Positions 6,715-16,804 of a stretch of 33,157 nucleotides of DNA are shown in pieces. The notes beneath the pieces were generated by a model. It ran no database searches. It worked only from the letters and a program-made list of their open reading frames with translations, and was not told the DNA's origin. The translations under genes were made by a program, and so were the position numbers. Source of the DNA: an uncultured archaeon (GTDB lineage: Archaea; Asgardarchaeota; Thorarchaeia; Thorarchaeales; Thorarchaeaceae); NCBI GenBank assembly GCA_964610875.1, contig CAZSWP010000040.1:1-33157 (forward strand). Reading direction: 5' to 3'. Every line of letters begins with the position of its first letter. Position 1 is the first letter of the stretch.

Positions 6715-7728
6715 CTATTTTTGAAATGTAGTTTCGATTTCCTCTAGAATATCTGGATGTTTCTCAAAAAATTCTCGAGCAGGTGTGAGTATTTCTATTA
6801 ATCCTTCGGTAACTGCTTGTTTCACATCTAACGGATGCAATTCATTAGAGGTATAGGCTTTCTCAAATTCGTCAATGTCATCAAATTCTACATCTCCCCC
6901 GAATTTCTCCTTCCTTGGAATGAGTATTTTTTCCTTCCGCGGGAAAAGTATGTATCGCACGGTGGATGTTATAGCATTATCCTGCAAATCTCCCGCTGGA
7001 CAGTAGGCTTTCTTTATGGTTTCCCTTATACTCTTTGGCGAGTCGGTTACACGAATATGGGATAAGGGGTCACTAGCTGACATCTTACCTCCTCCGCCTC
7101 TTATTGATGGCAATAAAGGCATGAAGATGTAAGCTCCTTTTTGATATCCAACATCTTCCAGTAGTTCACGACCAAGCATGTAGATATTCCTTTGATCGAT
7201 GCCTCCAACAATTATCTCTGCACTCAGATACTTTACATCTAAAATTTGAAGAAGGGGATAGAGTAACTCGCCAACCTTAGCGTCGCCTTTCATTCGCACA
7301 ACTTCACTTGCCGCTCTCTTTGCCCTTGTTGTCGTGACCTTTGATGCAATTTTGTATAAGTCTTCAACATAGTCTCTCTTATGCTGATATTCAGAACCTC
7401 TAACAAACTTGAATTTTTTGCCATCATCTCCTAGGAGACCCTTGATACACTCTTCATAATATTTTGACCGGAGTTCCATTAGTTCAAAGGATGTCTTCTG
7501 AGCATCTAGGTGAGCATGATAATCTGCTAGAAGAATTGTTCCTTTACCTCCAATATCTGATAGCTGAATTAATTTGTTGAAGGGTATCAGATACGCAAAG
7601 TGGAATGGTCCTGTTGGTGCAGTTCCATAATAAAAGTTGAATGATTTCTTCTGGATAATCTCTGCAATCTCTTCTTCTGTTACCACTTCCTCTGCATTTC
7701 TTATTGCAAGTTCCAATTCTTCACTCAT
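6715..7728 (-). CDS. tyrS: Tyrosine--tRNA ligase (archaeal/eukaryotic type)
   Basis: Class I motifs: [14 protein letters not shown] (HIGH equivalent), [26 protein letters not shown], KMSAS (KMSKS), KKAYCP, HPLDVK. ATG 7728 is preceded by SD-like GGTGAG; the ORF track starts at GTG 7737. Confidence 0.95.
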   Translation of the reverse strand: [337 protein letters not shown]

Positions 7729-7764
7729 TGTGCTCACCGAATGCGCCGGATGACTATGTCTGTA

Positions 7765-11639: not shown

Positions 11640-12512
11640 TCAATCTGGTTCTATATTAATGGGTAGTACTTCATTTTTTTGTTCTAAGATACATAATTTT
11701 GGTTTCACTTGACCTCGGTAAGATGCACTGAACACACTCACCAATCGTTGATTGAAGAAGTGTTGAATTCCATGAGGGAAGACTTCATGTGCTCGAAACA
11801 TGATTTCTATGCCAAGATTTCCGGTAAATTCATCAAATGCCTTTTTTCCATACGTTCTAGCTCGTCCTGACCTCATGTTTGGTCTGAATCCAAAATCTCC
11901 TTCTTGAGGGTCATTCCAGACCATTTGGAAGATGATATCTTCAGGAAAATCTGGATTATATCTGCTACAGGAATTGATATCTTCAAGGGACTTAACTCCC
12001 TCTGGAACACCTCCATGACATGCGAAAATACCACTCTTGCTGATTGCGGCAATTGGTAAGACTTGGTATGCTTCCATGATATAATAGAACGCCTTTGAGT
12101 TCACCTTTCTAATAGTATCATAATAAAATCCATATTTACCTGCTATCTGTTCTGATTCATGATTTCCTCTTAGTAGAGTTACTCTGTTTGGATATAAAAT
12201 CTTCAAAGCAAAGACGAACATCACACTCTCTAACTGCTCAGGACCTCTATCAGCATAGTCTCCTAGAAAGACTACATGGTGTTTCTTTCTCTTTTCCATC
12301 TCTTTTGCCACGGCTCGAACCGAGCCGAGTTCGCCATGGATATCTCCCACAAAGATAAGATGATTGGAGGGTATTGGTACCACATTCTTGGATTCATTAT
12401 AGAACCCTATAATTTGGTCTGCTAGTTCTTTTACATCTTGCTCTTCAAATTCCGATTTTCCTTGGAGAACATCATATATGAGTTGCATTTGGTGTTGCGT
12501 CCTCAGTGCCAA
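11640..12512 (-). CDS. PPP-family serine/threonine protein phosphatase
   Basis: Complete PPP signature: GDIHG, GDYADRG, LRGNHE, CHGG, WNDP, RAHE, SVFSAS. The start may be ATG 12488. Confidence 0.92.
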   Translation of the reverse strand: MALRTQHQMQLIYDVLQGKSEFEEQDVKELADQIIGFYNESKNVVPIPSNHLIFVGDIHGELGSVRAVAKEMEKRKKHHVVFLGDYADRGPEQLESVMFVFALKILYPNRVTLLRGNHESEQIAGKYGFYYDTIRKVNSKAFYYIMEAYQVLPIAAISKSGIFACHGGVPEGVKSLEDINSCSRYNPDFPEDIIFQMVWNDPQEGDFGFRPNMRSGRARTYGKKAFDEFTGNLGIEIMFRAHEVFPHGIQHFFNQRLVSVFSASYRGQVKPKLCILEQKNEVLPINIEPD

Positions 12513-13021
12513 TTTAGTTCACGAAATACTATGTCCACAGCTTCCTTTGCAGTTTCAGCTGCAAATACCTTATCCTTCCTTCGATGATCAATTTTGGTAT
12601 CAGCAAGTTTCGTTGCCCACCCTCCGGAATTTTTCAACGCAACAACTACAATATCTGAAAACCACGCTATTGCGATTTCACTCAAAGTACCAGCTGAACC
12701 ATCTATCGCAATGATGGCGTCTGATGCTTTGGCAACTAAGAAATTTCTAGCATATCCGAGTCCCGTTGGAATTGCAACATCAAGATAGGCGTTTCCTGCT
12801 TGCTTTTCATGAGTTGGAAGTATCCCGATTGTTAGACCATTGTGCAGCTTTGCACCTTTGCAAGCTGCTTCCATGACTCCTCCCATACCTCCACAGACTA
12901 GGACAACATCTCGCTTCGCAATCTCCTCACCAAGCTCATGTGCCGTCTTGATTCCAATATCAGAAGTTTCAGAACCACCGATTACTGATATTGTTCTTCT
13001 GGTCATCATATATCTACTCAT
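12503..13021 (-). CDS. TIGR00725-like SLOG/LOG-family nucleotide-binding protein
   Basis: ISVIGGS, LVCGGMGGVMEAACKGA, TIGILP, TGLGYARN, IDGSAGTLSEI. Confidence 0.9.
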   Translation of the reverse strand: MSRYMMTRRTISVIGGSETSDIGIKTAHELGEEIAKRDVVLVCGGMGGVMEAACKGAKLHNGLTIGILPTHEKQAGNAYLDVAIPTGLGYARNFLVAKASDAIIAIDGSAGTLSEIAIAWFSDIVVVALKNSGGWATKLADTKIDHRRKDKVFAAETAKEAVDIVFRELNWH

Positions 13022-14148
13022 TCAGATTCTATTGATGACCTAATTTTGTTGAATGCCCTCTTTAGACTATTGAATGCAGTTTGTGGTAGTTTCTTTTGCA
13101 TGAGTCTCTCTTTAGCGACATCAAGAAAATCACTATTCTCTTTCTTTAATACATAGCCTTTAATTGCTAATTCCGACTCAATTCTTATGCTTTCTTCAGA
13201 ACCGTCTGGTGTATAATACTTGCAGCTAGTTGCATATCTAATTTGTTTTTCCACATGATTGGGAATAATACGTGTCGATAGGGCATGTATCTTTGCCAGA
13301 ATAAGCATAGCTCGGGAGCCAATATCGTCTGTCGACCAACCATTGTCAACACCGATTATACAAATACCTGCATTGCGTTTACAGCTTCTTTTACAATTAT
13401 GGCAGGTCTTTGGTTTCAACCGAACATTACCTGAGCGCAAATCCATAGATATGTATCCCTCAGGGTAATCGAAACTACATGATTCATCTATACAAGTAAT
13501 CCCTTGCGTTCTTGCATATTCTGTTATGATCTCTAGTTCTTCATCGGTCACTGGGGGTAACGTCATGCGTGTTACATTACTAGTAAATCTTTCACATTCA
13601 TCAATACCAAGGACTACAAGTCCCATCTTCATTTTTTCTTCTCTATTTGCCTCATCTAAAAGCACTCCAAGAAGTTCTATTGAATCCTGCAAGTGTTCAG
13701 CTGAATAGAGCTTCAAAGGTTGACCAAGTATATTGTCAATCTCCCTTTTTTCAATCTCGGAGATGGGGTCATCAGATACAATAAGAAGGAGTACTGCTTG
13801 TGTCACGTCTTCTCGCAGATTTGTTATTGCATCAGAAATGCCATTAATATCTTCATGGTTGACGATGATTATGACTGCTTTATGTCCTTTGTAGAATTTC
13901 CTCAAAATATTCCCGTGTTCATAGTGTGTTGGTATTGACCATAGCTGAAATACATAATCGGTTTTCTCATCTATATGACAGCGTGTAACTCCGAGTGTAA
14001 CACCCAAGCTAGGAAATAGTTGACTTGAGAAACTCTCACCAGAAACCCCACTAACATAACCTGCCTGTAAATCGGGTTCTATGCCCATCACTATGGTCTT
14101 GTAGACGATAGTTCTCATATCTTCAGGTTGGGCACTACTCTGAGTCAC
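13018..14148 (-). CDS. Protein with degenerate Rab/Ras-like GTPase N-terminal domain and Cys-rich C-terminal domain
   Basis: YKTIVMG...FPSLGV...FQLWS...FYKGHKAVIIIVN follows the Rab scaffold, but the G1 GKS/T and G3 DxxG residues are missing. The C-terminal part has TCHNCKRSC..ICI..CKYY. ATGA overlap with the next gene. Confidence 0.65.
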   Translation of the reverse strand: MTQSSAQPEDMRTIVYKTIVMGIEPDLQAGYVSGVSGESFSSQLFPSLGVTLGVTRCHIDEKTDYVFQLWSIPTHYEHGNILRKFYKGHKAVIIIVNHEDINGISDAITNLREDVTQAVLLLIVSDDPISEIEKREIDNILGQPLKLYSAEHLQDSIELLGVLLDEANREEKMKMGLVVLGIDECERFTSNVTRMTLPPVTDEELEIITEYARTQGITCIDESCSFDYPEGYISMDLRSGNVRLKPKTCHNCKRSCKRNAGICIIGVDNGWSTDDIGSRAMLILAKIHALSTRIIPNHVEKQIRYATSCKYYTPDGSEESIRIESELAIKGYVLKKENSDFLDVAKERLMQKKLPQTAFNSLKRAFNKIRSSIESE

Positions 14149-14307
14149 AGTAATACTTTCTCACTTTTTCGCATATAACTGATGGTGTGGGTAATTATTG
14201 AACCTGTGGAGATTATATTTGTTACTACTGATATAATGAGGATGGTTTCACCAGTATGTTCAATTGCAATTCGAAAAGGTTTCCAACTCTCCTTAGGAGG
14301 ATAGTAT

Positions 14308-14436
14308 TTGTCAGCAAGACGGTTCAATAAACATACACTCAGACGCGACTCTCATGAGTCATTAGACGACGACGAATTCCCTGATATCATACCTGATTTG
14401 TCTTATGAGGAATTCAAAGAAAGCAAGAGAGATTGA
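14308..14436 (+). CDS. Small 42-aa basic/acidic protein (MSARRFNKHTLRRDSHESLDDDEFPDIIPDLSYEEFKESKRD), not in ORF track
   Basis: AGGAGG at 14295-14300 lies 7 nt before TTG 14308. TGA 14434-14436 converges on the 14447 stop with a 10-bp gap. Confidence 0.5.
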   Translation: MSARRFNKHTLRRDSHESLDDDEFPDIIPDLSYEEFKESKRD

Positions 14437-14446
14437 GCACTTTCCA

Positions 14447-16642
14447 TCAGATGTGTCTTCGTTTTCTTATGACACAAGCCAGAATGATTGCTACTGATAC
14501 AGCACCAATAGCAATTGTAATGTAGATCATATTGATTGGCATTCCCGTAGTGTTCGTAGGTCCCAACTCAGGATGATAGACAACAGGCATGCCATATGCG
14601 ATATTCATGCCCCAATCTTCAGCCCAGACTTTTATCTCAACGTAAATATCTACCGGAACTTGATTTATCTTGGCTATGTAGTGCGTACCGTTGAATTCGC
14701 ACCTCTTAGTTTCCACAGAGCTTCCAATCGTAACTTGAACTAGAACAATGTCAATTCCGGACTGACTGTCTGATGCCATCACCCATACATTTGTTGGACC
14801 AAGAAGCGGTGAGGATTCAGTTCCCCAACCGATAATTGTTGGTGGAACTGCATCAACAAGAGACCATCTCAGTCTTCTTGTCCATTCATTTGCCTCTACA
14901 AGAGCTTCATAACATTCTTGCCACTGCATGGAATTGAAGTAGTCTTCTGCGGCTTGGAAATGGTTTAGAGCTTGATATTCTGCTTTTGCTGAATCTTCGG
15001 GTTTAACTGATGATGTAACATCTTCTCGGTAGGTTTCAAAATCGAGTCTGACGTTTCCGTACATCTGGTCAAGATAAGTACCTTGGACCCAGTTCTGATC
15101 GAATTTTCCTGTCCCGTTGAATCTACCGAAATAACCCATTGGTGAAAATGAAAAATCTCCAACATAATGAGTTTCAGACCATGTGTGACCTAACCCGATC
15201 GCATGCATAGCTTCATGAAGCTGAACTCCAGAGATACCTGCTTTGGGAGTTGTTTCATCTGGGCGATAGTATCTCTCCCAGCTTTTCCAGATGCATGTTT
15301 GTCCACTCCCGCCAAGACCTGTGTATTGTCTTCCATATACATGCATCTCCATGTTCTTCTTGATGAAAATAGCTCCGAACACCGTAATGTTGGTATCAGT
15401 AGTATCAACATAGTTTGGCCTCATCTGATTATAGACTGCATTAAACATGCCATATCCATCAACAATAGTCTTACCTCCTGAATCGACATAAGCATAGTTC
15501 CAGAACAGATTAGACCAGTCATCATGTTCATTGATATCAACAAACTCAACATCAACCTCCCATTCAATAAATGGATGTAAGGTTTCTAGATGGTATTGCT
15601 GTAGTTCTTCACGAGTGACCCATTCAAGACTCTCTACCGATGTCCCGTCCGCTACATCCATACAGATAACCAATGTCTTCACATATCCCTTCTGAACATA
15701 TGCTGATGGACTATTACCTGGACTACCCATTGGTGAAACAGGTGCAAAGAGATGAGTGATAGGATCTTCTAGATATTCTCTGATATACTCATTGAGTTCT
15801 AAAATATCTCCGCTATCAGAGAGGTCAAGTTCTGATAGTTTCTCATCGAGATCTTTTGTACAGTATTCGTCTTCATTGGTGTATGGAGAATCACTCCACC
15901 AGATTCGAGCCCATCTGAGATACCATTGGTCTGCAGATGGGTCTAATACGAAGAGGTTATGTCGTCCACCGAAACCAGCATATTGCATCATCAAGTCTTG
16001 ATTCAGTTCATTATCCCACTCTAATCTAAACCAGTCCTGAATCTCACCTGTATCAGGGTCAGTAGGTTTGTAGTCGTACCAGTGTTCTAATGAGTGGTCC
16101 GTTGAATCAAACTCAGTGAAATTCAAAATATAGTATACATAACCAAGGTCTGGTTGTGTAACCGCAGGATGTTCATTAAGCCAATCCTCTACCGTTCTCG
16201 CATCAATTGATCTGCCATCTCTTGGATAGAACACTGCTCTTGGCATACTAGGGTCAGCTTTGTGTAACTCCAATTCTGCTTCATCTATTGATGTGCCTGT
16301 ATCTGTCCCATTGATTGAATTATCTAACATGACCTGCCTTAGTTGGTCAGTATAGGATTCATTCGCAAATGATACTTGATATGAGAATTCGTAGGTTAGA
16401 ATAGTGTTTGTTCCATCGTGGGTTCTTTGATTTGGCAAACCTGTAGTCATCATGGACTCATCAATAAGCTCTGCATCGTAATTGACAAATACGATGTGAA
16501 TCAGCCAGTTATGTTCAATTGTCCAATCATCCGGAACATCTGCGGGTTTATAATCCCCATGAGTGGTCTCAATCGGAACTGTGGTTGGTAATGATATAAC
16601 TGAAATGAGTATGATTAAAGCAAAGATGGTGAAGGCTCGCAT
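14447..16642 (-). CDS. Secreted, C-terminally membrane-anchored zinc metallopeptidase-like protein (metzincin motif)
   Basis: Signal peptide from ATG 16642 (MRAFTIFALII), HEAMHAIGLGH (HExxHxxGxxH), Met-turn-like SPMGY, an Ig-like segment, then a C-terminal TM and basic RKRRH. Confidence 0.8.
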   Translation of the reverse strand: MRAFTIFALIILISVISLPTTVPIETTHGDYKPADVPDDWTIEHNWLIHIVFVNYDAELIDESMMTTGLPNQRTHDGTNTILTYEFSYQVSFANESYTDQLRQVMLDNSINGTDTGTSIDEAELELHKADPSMPRAVFYPRDGRSIDARTVEDWLNEHPAVTQPDLGYVYYILNFTEFDSTDHSLEHWYDYKPTDPDTGEIQDWFRLEWDNELNQDLMMQYAGFGGRHNLFVLDPSADQWYLRWARIWWSDSPYTNEDEYCTKDLDEKLSELDLSDSGDILELNEYIREYLEDPITHLFAPVSPMGSPGNSPSAYVQKGYVKTLVICMDVADGTSVESLEWVTREELQQYHLETLHPFIEWEVDVEFVDINEHDDWSNLFWNYAYVDSGGKTIVDGYGMFNAVYNQMRPNYVDTTDTNITVFGAIFIKKNMEMHVYGRQYTGLGGSGQTCIWKSWERYYRPDETTPKAGISGVQLHEAMHAIGLGHTWSETHYVGDFSFSPMGYFGRFNGTGKFDQNWVQGTYLDQMYGNVRLDFETYREDVTSSVKPEDSAKAEYQALNHFQAAEDYFNSMQWQECYEALVEANEWTRRLRWSLVDAVPPTIIGWGTESSPLLGPTNVWVMASDSQSGIDIVLVQVTIGSSVETKRCEFNGTHYIAKINQVPVDIYVEIKVWAEDWGMNIAYGMPVVYHPELGPTNTTGMPINMIYITIAIGAVSVAIILACVIRKRRHI

Positions 16643-16804
16643 GCTATTTGTTTTGTAGAATTGAAATATTAACACAGTGATTGAAGCATTTGGGTATTTA
16701 TTTACGGGTCTTGCTACATTCTGTTAATTTCTCCTATTTTCCGAAGAACATTTGGGAATACACAACCAATGCATATATATTAGGATATGATATAACATAA
16801 TATA

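What the first reader, a model, noticed from the sequence alone, without database searches (positions are those of the whole stretch)
13650..14148. Pseudo-Rab: small-GTPase fold with all nucleotide-binding motifs eroded, fused to a Cys-rich domain
Seen: YKTIVMG-IEPDLQAG (P-loop position, no GKS/T), FPSLGV (compare Rab PTIGV), FQLWSIPTH (compare LQIWDTAGQ) and FYKGHKAVIIIVN (compare YYRGAxGxxxVYD). No NKxD motif is present. The C-terminal half has CHNCKRSC/ICI/CKYY. Known: Asgard archaea have expanded Ras-superfamily GTPases. Inference: a catalytically dead pseudo-GTPase scaffold with a metal-binding domain, which automated annotation would likely miss.
Basis: partly seen in the sequence, partly recalled or inferred. 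Interest (0 to 1): 0.7.

Follow-up and report, generated by a model that had tools for sequence, protein, structure and literature searches.

The report
Dead Rab-like GTPase with cysteine-rich module
This Asgard-archaeal (Thorarchaeota) gene encodes a Rab-like GTPase that has lost every nucleotide-binding motif, joined to a cysteine-rich domain that may resemble a ubiquitin-E2 enzyme; it belongs to an old family annotated only as 'hypothetical'.

Summary
The full gene is 13018-14148 on the minus strand and encodes 376 aa; the finding's coordinates cover only the N-terminal domain.

- **Rab-like fold.** Residues 12-180 form a complete G-domain. The AF2 model has pLDDT 92, the top 50 Foldseek PDB hits are small GTPases (49 Rab-type), and a profile of 26 orthologs hits Rab35 at E=9e-11.
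- **No nucleotide motifs.** None of about 90 family members has GxxxxGK[S/T]. DxxG and NKxD are also gone in the Thorarchaeota clade.
- **Descent from real GTPases.** More distant members from Loki-, Hel-, Hod- and Hermodarchaeota pass Pfam Ras/Roc and keep remnants of G3 and G4. The erosion is therefore old and progressive.
- **Gene context.** In all 14 orthologous loci the gene sits directly upstream of a SLOG-cluster4 gene and a PPP phosphatase gene. That pair also exists without it.

Most likely function (inferred): a nucleotide-independent adaptor. The scan had noted this locus on this same window only.

The parts
13018..14148 (-). Whole gene, 376 aa (GTG start; an ATG at residue 11 is an alternative start)
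   Evidence: ORF list and translation. Full-length orthologs without internal stops in 14 related genomes.
13609..14115 (-). Rab-like pseudo-G-domain, residues 12-180, with the canonical order b1-a1-b2-b3-a2-b4-a3-b5-a4-b6-a5
   Evidence: AF2 secondary structure, Foldseek hits to Rabs, profile against PDB. Coordinates checked.
14059..14085 (-). Remnant of the P-loop (G1): GIEPDLQAG where Rabs have GDSGVGKS. G22, L27 and G30 are invariant; Lys became Gln, Ser became Ala, and the second Gly became Leu.
   Evidence: Alignments; regex scan; coordinates.
13924..13947 (-). Remnant of b3/switch II (G3): QLWSIPTH where Rabs have QIWDTAGQ. Q68, W70 and P73 are invariant.
13546..13608 (-). Interdomain linker, residues 181-201, lower model confidence. 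Contains C185, conserved in at least 90% of the Thorarchaeota orthologs.
   Evidence: pLDDT about 67 in this block; C185 near-invariant in A5.
13219..13545 (-). Cysteine-rich alpha/beta module, residues 202-310: a1, a four-strand meander, a Cys loop, a GW loop, then a2 and a3. Candidate UBC/UEV-like fold.
   Evidence: AF2 model with pLDDT 94. No Pfam family. Weak structural hits to UEV/E2/Atg10. hhalign against Asgard E2s, P=0.027.
13360..13404 (-). Cys cluster C249-x2-C252-x3-C256-x6-C263. C249, C252 and C263 are invariant in 84 sequences; C256 is present in at least 90%. C309 (13222-13224) is a fifth conserved Cys.
13334..13362 (-). I-C263-I-I-G-V-D-N-G-W271(-S272): the same Cys-x7-Trp-Ser spacing as the E2 active-site segment. 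In Asgard E2s this segment reads V-C-I/V-G-I-L-G-K-D/E/Q-W followed by S/T/R/L-P.
   Evidence: Asgard E2 sequences, hhalign alignment, family consensus.
13021..13218 (-). C-terminal helical extension, residues 311-376. A345 and R348 are invariant in the Thorarchaeota clade. Much of it is missing from the shorter distant members.
   Evidence: protein lengths.
12503..13021 (-). Downstream gene 1: SLOG cluster4 (PF18306) protein. Its ATG overlaps the target's stop codon (ATGA at 13018-13021).
   Evidence: Pfam E=5.3e-44; overlap read directly; conserved gene order.
11640..12512 (-). Downstream gene 2: PPP-type (calcineurin-like) Ser/Thr phosphatase with GDIHG, GDYADRG, GNHE and RAHE motifs
   Evidence: Pfam Metallophos E=4.8e-24; sequence; conserved gene order.

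Best explanation
The gene encodes a two-domain pseudoenzyme.

**N-terminal half (shown).** It is a genuine descendant of Rab-like small GTPases and keeps the whole G-domain fold. It also keeps the Rab-family sequence patches around the switch and interswitch region. All residues that hold guanine nucleotide and Mg2+ have been replaced: P-loop GKS became LQA, DxxG became SxP, and NKxD is gone.

**Consequence (inferred).** It probably cannot bind GTP or GDP, and most likely acts as a permanently 'locked' protein-binding surface.

**C-terminal half (shown).** It is a conserved alpha/beta module carrying five conserved cysteines.

**C-terminal half (inferred).** The cysteines probably hold a metal (Zn or Fe-S). 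The module may be a diverged UBC/UEV-type fold whose HPN loop was replaced by CxxCxxxC.

**Role in Thorarchaeota (inferred).** The gene is co-transcribed with a SLOG ligand-binding protein and a PPP Ser/Thr phosphatase. It most likely serves as an accessory adaptor or regulatory subunit of that module. The closest analogy is eukaryotic MRAS acting as a regulatory subunit of PP1 in the SHOC2-MRAS-PP1C complex.
For: - **Fold.** AF2 pLDDT 92 with canonical G-domain topology. The top 50 Foldseek PDB hits are small GTPases, 49 of them Rab-type.
- **Homology.** Ortholog profile against PDB gives Rab35 at 9e-11, with the 60 hits shown all Rab/Ypt/Sec4. Distant family members pass Pfam Roc/Ras: Roc matches 29 and Ras 25 of 37.
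- **Motif loss.** No P-loop in any of about 90 members that carry the Cys module. Invariant residues K17, G22, L27, G30, Q68, W70, P73 and G88 cluster on the former P-loop and switch II.
- **Real gene under selection.** Full-length orthologs at 24-32% identity occur in 14 of 24 same-family genomes.
- **Cys module.** pLDDT 94. C249, C252 and C263 are invariant; C256 and C309 are present in at least 90% of 84 sequences.
- **Operon.** The target is followed by SLOG and then PPP in all 14 orthologous loci, with an ATGA stop/start overlap.
Against: - No nucleotide-binding, metal or interaction assay exists, and I could not read Cys-Cys distances from the model.
- The SLOG-PPP pair is kept in 23 of 24 same-family genomes. 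Nine of these have no family member upstream of the pair, or anywhere in the genome, with my queries. The protein is therefore not an obligate partner.
- Distant family members are not next to SLOG or PPP, so the family's core function is independent of that module.
- The protein evolves much faster (24-32% identity) than its neighbours: SLOG 54-68%, PPP 40-48%.
- The UBC-like reading rests on weak scores (Z no higher than 4.8; hhalign P=0.027).
Confidence: 0.55

Rival explanations
1. The C-terminal module is an active E2-like (thiol-transfer) enzyme. C263 would be a catalytic cysteine equivalent to the E2 active-site Cys. The other four cysteines (C249, C252, C256, C309) would hold a structural Zn. 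The dead Rab domain would target the enzyme to a partner or a membrane.
For: - The spacing C-x7-W-S is the same as in E2s, followed by a helix and a conserved Pro, as in the E2 segment a2-NPxxP.
- hhalign's best alignment places C263 on the E2 catalytic Cys. Score 17.5, against 10.6 +/- 2.0 for column shuffles, with 1 of 60 shuffles reaching it.
- Secondary-structure spacings match the E2 layout as I recall it: 17 residues from b4 to the Cys and 15 from the Cys to a2. The E2 side of this comparison was not measured here.
- UEV, E2 and Atg10 recur among the weak structural hits.
- There are five conserved cysteines, which fits four metal ligands plus one free Cys.
Against: - No member hits Pfam UQ_con or any E2 family, even at E<=10. 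The A4 profile finds no E2 in PDB sequences.
- HPN is absent.
- Thorarchaeota seemingly lack ubiquitin (PMC9192718). Canonical E2 was not found in 23 of 24 same-family genomes.
- No E1, Ubl or JAB gene sits next to any member examined.
Confidence: 0.15
2. The Cys module is a redox or metal (Fe-S or Zn) sensor. The protein would relay that signal, in Thorarchaeota to the PPP phosphatase. In other architectures the same module would relay it to DNA-binding domains.
For: - Four cysteines lie within 15 residues, plus a fifth conserved Cys. In the Thorarchaeota clade there is a sixth, C185.
- The same module is fused to a winged HTH domain (P0078) and to a TFIIB cyclin repeat (P0088).
- Asgard archaea are anaerobes that use many Fe-S proteins (general knowledge).
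Against: - There is no similarity to a known Fe-S or Zn sensor family.
- The wHTH and TFIIB fusions are single representatives each.
- Cysteine spacing alone does not say which metal is bound, or whether the site is redox-active.
Confidence: 0.2
3. The N-terminal domain still binds a nucleotide or a related ligand through a remodelled pocket. It would then be a non-canonical switch rather than a dead scaffold.
For: - The residues replacing the P-loop and switch II are themselves invariant (L27, G30, Q68, W70, P73), so the pocket region is under selection.
- Some eukaryotic pseudoGTPases still bind nucleotide, for example the N-terminal domain of p190RhoGAP (PMC10211241).
- A SAE string sits at the G5 (SAK) position in this protein.
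Against: - The P-loop Lys, the Ser/Thr Mg ligand, the G3 Asp and Gly, and the whole NKxD base-recognition motif are all missing.
- A conserved Leu replaces the P-loop Gly; I infer that it would fill the phosphate site.
Confidence: 0.07
4. The gene is a decaying relic with no function.
For: - Fast divergence compared with its neighbours.
- Not found in about half of the same-family genomes.
Against: - Open, full-length frames in 14 of 24 genomes, and the Cys module is present in 29 of 59.
- 23 invariant columns across 14 orthologs at 23-31% identity to the window protein.
- The family spans 8 sampled Asgard families.
- Very confident AF2 models.
Confidence: 0.03

Closest known systems
Rab-family small GTPases (eukaryotic Rab35/Rab3/Sec4/Ypt1; Asgard 'Thor-Rab', PMC10933270)
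   Same: - Full G-domain fold in canonical order.
- Best sequence and structure matches are Rabs.
- The Rab-family patches are recognisable: LGVxxGV for IGVDF, LQLW for LQIW, ERxxGxT for ERFRTIT, FxRGH for YYRGA.
   Different: - G1, G3 and G4 motifs are absent.
- There is no C-terminal prenylation Cys motif; the protein ends in a helix.
- It carries a 195-aa C-terminal extension.
Eukaryotic pseudoGTPases that do not bind nucleotide (CENP-M; p190RhoGAP pG1/pG2), as reviewed in PMC10211241
   Same: - G-domain fold with eroded G motifs.
- Presumed scaffold or protein-interaction role.
   Different: - Archaeal, and Rab-derived.
- An independent origin is likely (inferred).
- Fused to a Cys-rich module.
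- My searches found no paper describing an archaeal pseudoGTPase.
UBC superfamily (E2 enzymes; UEV pseudo-E2 domains such as BRCC45; Atg10)
   Same: - Topology a1, four-strand meander, loop, a2, a3.
- A conserved Cys is followed at +8/+9 by Trp-Ser, then a helix and a conserved Pro.
   Different: - No HPN motif; a CxxCxxxC motif takes its place.
- No Pfam UQ_con hit.
- The sheet is much more compact.
- All scores are in the twilight range.
SHOC2-MRAS-PP1C holophosphatase (established knowledge; not checked in a paper here)
   Same: A Ras-superfamily protein would serve as a regulatory subunit of a PPP-family phosphatase. This is the functional analogy suggested by the conserved operon.
   Different: - MRAS is an active, GTP-dependent switch.
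- Here the G-domain is dead, no SHOC2-like LRR protein is present, and no interaction has been shown.

Membership tests
Ras superfamily / Rab family (active small GTPase) | G-domain fold (six-stranded sheet, five helices) | tested here: met
   AF2 pLDDT 92. Foldseek to Rabs: E about 1e-6, TM-score by target 0.6-0.7.
Ras superfamily / Rab family (active small GTPase) | G1 P-loop GxxxxGK[S/T] | tested here: not met
   The sequence reads GIEPDLQAG. The motif is absent from every member that carries the Cys module.
Ras superfamily / Rab family (active small GTPase) | G3 DxxG(Q) and G4 NKxD | tested here: not met
   WSIPTH stands in place of WDTAGQ, and VSDD in place of GNKxD.
Ras superfamily / Rab family (active small GTPase) | Significant match to Pfam Ras or Roc | tested here: not met
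   Roc E=0.061 at 14 bits, against a cut-off of 27. Distant relatives do pass.
Rab family | C-terminal Cys prenylation motif (CC/CxC) | tested here: not met
   The protein ends ...IRSSIESE within a helix.
PseudoGTPase (G-domain homolog lacking G motifs) | Demonstrable homology to GTPases together with loss of the catalytic and binding motifs | tested here: met
   Profile E=9e-11 to Rabs; motif loss.
PseudoGTPase (G-domain homolog lacking G motifs) | Experimentally shown lack of nucleotide binding or hydrolysis | not testable with these tools
   Needs a biochemical assay.
UBC/E2 superfamily | UBC fold | tested here: inconclusive
UBC/E2 superfamily | HPN motif upstream of the catalytic Cys | tested here: not met
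   Replaced by C-x2-C-x3-C.
UBC/E2 superfamily | Active-site Cys followed by W-[ST]-P at +8 | tested here: inconclusive
   C263-x7-W271-S272 is conserved, but the Pro is absent. hhalign P=0.027; 1 of 60 shuffles reaches the score.
UBC/E2 superfamily | Match to Pfam UQ_con or a related family | tested here: not met
   No hit at E<=10 for 84 members. PF00179 finds nothing in the window's own genome.

The most novel reading that the evidence does not exclude
An Asgard-wide, ancient family couples a nucleotide-independent Rab-like domain to a previously unrecognised, metal-stabilised E2-like domain that keeps a catalytic cysteine. It would be a new type of conjugating or thiol-relay enzyme, working even in Thorarchaeota, which lack ubiquitin. 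It would also link the two hallmark 'eukaryote-like' systems of Asgard archaea, small GTPases and ubiquitin-type chemistry, in one polypeptide.
Probability: 0.12. Interest if true: 0.8.

Novelty: new variant of a known kind. Interest (0 to 1): 0.55.

Why it matters
The expanded small-GTPase repertoire of Asgard archaea is a central argument for their eukaryote-like cell biology. The papers my searches returned described these proteins as presumed switches.

This family shows that part of the repertoire became nucleotide-independent pseudoGTPases long ago. The pseudoGTPase examples in the review I read (PMC10211241) are all eukaryotic, and my searches found no archaeal case. It also defines a new conserved Cys-rich module found in 79 of 251 sampled Asgard genomes. 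Finally, it offers a small, testable three-gene module (pseudo-Rab, SLOG, PPP phosphatase) for studying archaeal phospho-signalling.

Tried and rejected
- **Word-indexed homolog search.** With the single protein it found only the protein itself. With the A4 profile it found six proteins, all unnamed or 'hypothetical'.
- **Family libraries.** NCBIfam gave no hit. Pfam on the protein gave only sub-threshold Roc and ATP-synt_F.
- **C-terminal module against sequence libraries.** No Pfam family across 84 members, even at E<=10. The A4 profile against PDB sequences found nothing meaningful.
- **C-terminal module against structure libraries.** Foldseek PDB gave nothing below E=0.67. The VIA-wide list was dominated by the terminal helical hairpin. 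The ESM Atlas structure search gave TM no higher than 0.47, to CesT, DUF4304 and DUF3786. The Atlas feature search gave a top score of 0.75, which is noise.
- **Context of distant members.** They are not linked to SLOG, PPP or ubiquitin genes.
- **Upstream 60-aa ORF (14145-14327).** It has no counterpart in the orthologous loci and was treated as spurious.
- **Model coordinates.** They were not available to scripts, so Cys-Cys distances could not be measured.

Full report
**What is there.** The finding lies in a 376-aa ORF on the minus strand, 13018-14148 (translation). Relatives carry public names such as 'Candidatus Thorarchaeota archaeon', so the genome is a member of the Thorarchaeota (Asgard archaea). 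Public annotation of relatives is uniformly 'hypothetical protein'.

**The N-terminal half is a Rab-like G-domain.**
- Single-sequence phmmer against PDB sequences returns marginal hits (Rab38 E=0.008, Ypt1 0.009), almost all of them Rab/Ypt proteins. Pfam Roc is below threshold (E=0.061).
- Whole-genome searches of relatives found full-length orthologs in 14 of 24 genomes of the same family, at 24-32% identity. An exhaustive HMMER search of 1.84 billion representatives found 97 proteins.
- A profile of 26 ortholog N-terminal halves (A5) hits Rab35 at E=9.3e-11. In total 193 PDB sequences score at E<=0.01, and the 60 shown are all Rab/Ypt/Sec4.
- An AF2 model built on a 72-sequence alignment has mean pLDDT 92 and the canonical order b1-a1-b2-b3-a2-b4-a3-b5-a4-b6-a5.
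- The top 50 Foldseek PDB hits are small GTPases, 49 of them Rab-type, at E about 1e-6, probability 1.00 and TM-score by target of mostly 0.6-0.7 over about 175 columns.
- More distant family members (for example P0037, E=7e-15 to the query) pass Pfam Roc/Ras on their own: Roc matches 29 and Ras 25 of 37.

**The nucleotide motifs are gone, and this is a family trait.**
- A regex scan found no GxxxxGK[ST] in any member that carries the Cys module. The only P-loop proteins in the hit list are four canonical GTPases at the weak end, which lack the Cys motif.
- In the profile alignment to Rab35, GDSGVGKS corresponds to G-s-d-p-a-L-q-a. The P-loop Lys is Gln, the Mg-binding Ser is Ala, and the second Gly is an invariant Leu. 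WDTAGQ corresponds to W-s-l-P-s-s, and GNKxD to v-v-G-s-e.
- The Thorarchaeota clade has lost everything. The Loki-, Hel- and Hodarchaeota-type members often keep the Asp of G3 (WD..) and N.D remnants of G4, and one (P0072) keeps NKTD. Erosion was therefore progressive from a real GTPase ancestor.
- The replacement residues are themselves invariant among orthologs: K17, G22, L27, G30, Q68, W70, P73 and G88. The Rab-family patches around the interswitch region are still recognisable. I infer that the former switch surface is retained as a binding surface.

**The C-terminal half.**
- Residues 202-310 form a compact alpha/beta module, followed by a helical tail. A separate AF2 model on 84 sequences has pLDDT 94.
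- C249, C252 and C263 are invariant, and C256 and C309 are present in at least 90% of 84 sequences, as are I264, G270, W271, K286 and P296.
- The module has no Pfam family, no PDB sequence match and no significant Foldseek match.
- It also occurs in shorter proteins with no recognisable Ras/Roc domain. In one protein each it is fused to a winged HTH domain (P0078) and to a TFIIB cyclin repeat (P0088).
- It was found in 79 of 251 sampled genomes of the phylum, in 8 of 28 families, usually as a single copy.

**A lead: the module may be UBC/E2-like.**
- Its topology (a1, four-strand meander, long loop, a2, a3) is that of the UBC fold.
- Asgard E2s fetched from related genomes read ...HPN...V-C-I/V-G-I-L-G-K-D/E/Q-W, followed by S, T, R or L and then P. 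The family reads I-C263-I-V-G-x-D-x-G-W271-S. The Cys-x7-Trp-Ser spacing is the same, and a helix and a conserved Pro follow in both.
- hhalign of the module profile against 11 Asgard E2s picks exactly this alignment as its best: score 17.5, P=0.027. Sixty column-shuffled controls gave 10.6 +/- 2.0, and one reached the real score.
- Thorarchaeota seemingly lack ubiquitin (PMC9192718). Canonical UQ_con was not found in 23 of 24 same-family genomes, although it was found in 13 of the 16 other sampled Asgard genomes, from 11 of 13 other families. A classical ubiquitin-E2 role is therefore unlikely here.

**Gene context.**
- The target's stop codon overlaps the start of a SLOG-cluster4 gene (ATGA at 13018-13021). 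A PPP-type phosphatase with intact motifs follows.
- The order target, SLOG, PPP holds in all 14 orthologous loci.
- The SLOG-PPP pair is present in 23 of 24 same-family genomes. In nine of them no family member lies upstream, or anywhere in the genome, with my profiles.
- Distant members sit in unrelated contexts.
- The target is far more divergent between genomes (24-32% identity) than SLOG (54-68%), PPP (40-48%) or the DUF362 gene downstream (81-87% over its full-length matches).

**Interpretation.**
- *Shown:* a Rab-derived G-domain without nucleotide motifs; a conserved Cys-rich module; a conserved operon in one clade.
- *Inferred:* no nucleotide binding; metal binding by the cysteines; a role as an accessory adaptor or regulatory subunit of the SLOG-PPP module. 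The closest functional analogy is a Ras-family protein acting as a PP1 regulatory subunit in SHOC2-MRAS-PP1C (established knowledge).
- *Rivals:* an active E2-like thiol enzyme, a redox/metal sensor, a remodelled ligand pocket, and a decaying gene. Each is listed with the result that would refute it.

**Novelty.** The pseudoGTPase examples named in the review I read (PMC10211241) are all eukaryotic. My literature searches found no description of an archaeal pseudoGTPase or of this architecture. I rate it a new variant of a known kind. Earlier notes of this scan on the same window had flagged the three-gene coupling (e1-5563395), and I confirmed it by synteny. A note on another genome describes a different degenerate GTPase heading a Lokiarchaeal ubiquitin cassette (e1-5519616). 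That note is a thematic lead only and was not tested here.

Noticed in passing
L050:864-1400 (G027) and L047:2207-3169 (G032): In two other Asgard families the SLOG-cluster4 ortholog also neighbours a small GTPase. One is a canonical Ras-family gene, convergent to SLOG. The other is a RagA/Gtr1-like gene directly downstream. This could be chance, given how many GTPases these genomes encode.
   Followed up: partly
window 6715-7737 and L021:6617-7690: A TyrRS-type gene (tRNA-synt_1b) lies within a few kb of the pseudo-GTPase, both in this window and next to the distant family member P0042. This is either remnant synteny or coincidence.
   Followed up: no
window 14447-16675 (-): The upstream 742-aa gene has no Pfam hit. 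It has a HEAMHAIGLGH string (a zinc-metallopeptidase-like HExxH motif) and a C-terminal hydrophobic anchor. Orthologs lie upstream of the target in some related loci (L017, L013, L009).
   Followed up: no
same-family genomes G001-G024: Canonical E2 (Pfam UQ_con) was not found over the cut-off in any of 24 same-family genomes or in the window's own genome. It was found in most other sampled Asgard families. This agrees with the published absence of ubiquitin in Thorarchaeota.
   Followed up: partly
P0081: One short protein with the Cys module carries an NCBI label from a bacterial MAG (Candidatus Deferrimicrobium). This may be a binning error or a gene transfer.
   Followed up: no
window 14145-14327 (-): A 60-aa ORF's stop overlaps the target's GTG start (GTGA). 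It has no counterpart in the orthologous loci and is probably not a gene. TATA-like boxes lie in this intergenic stretch.
   Followed up: partly
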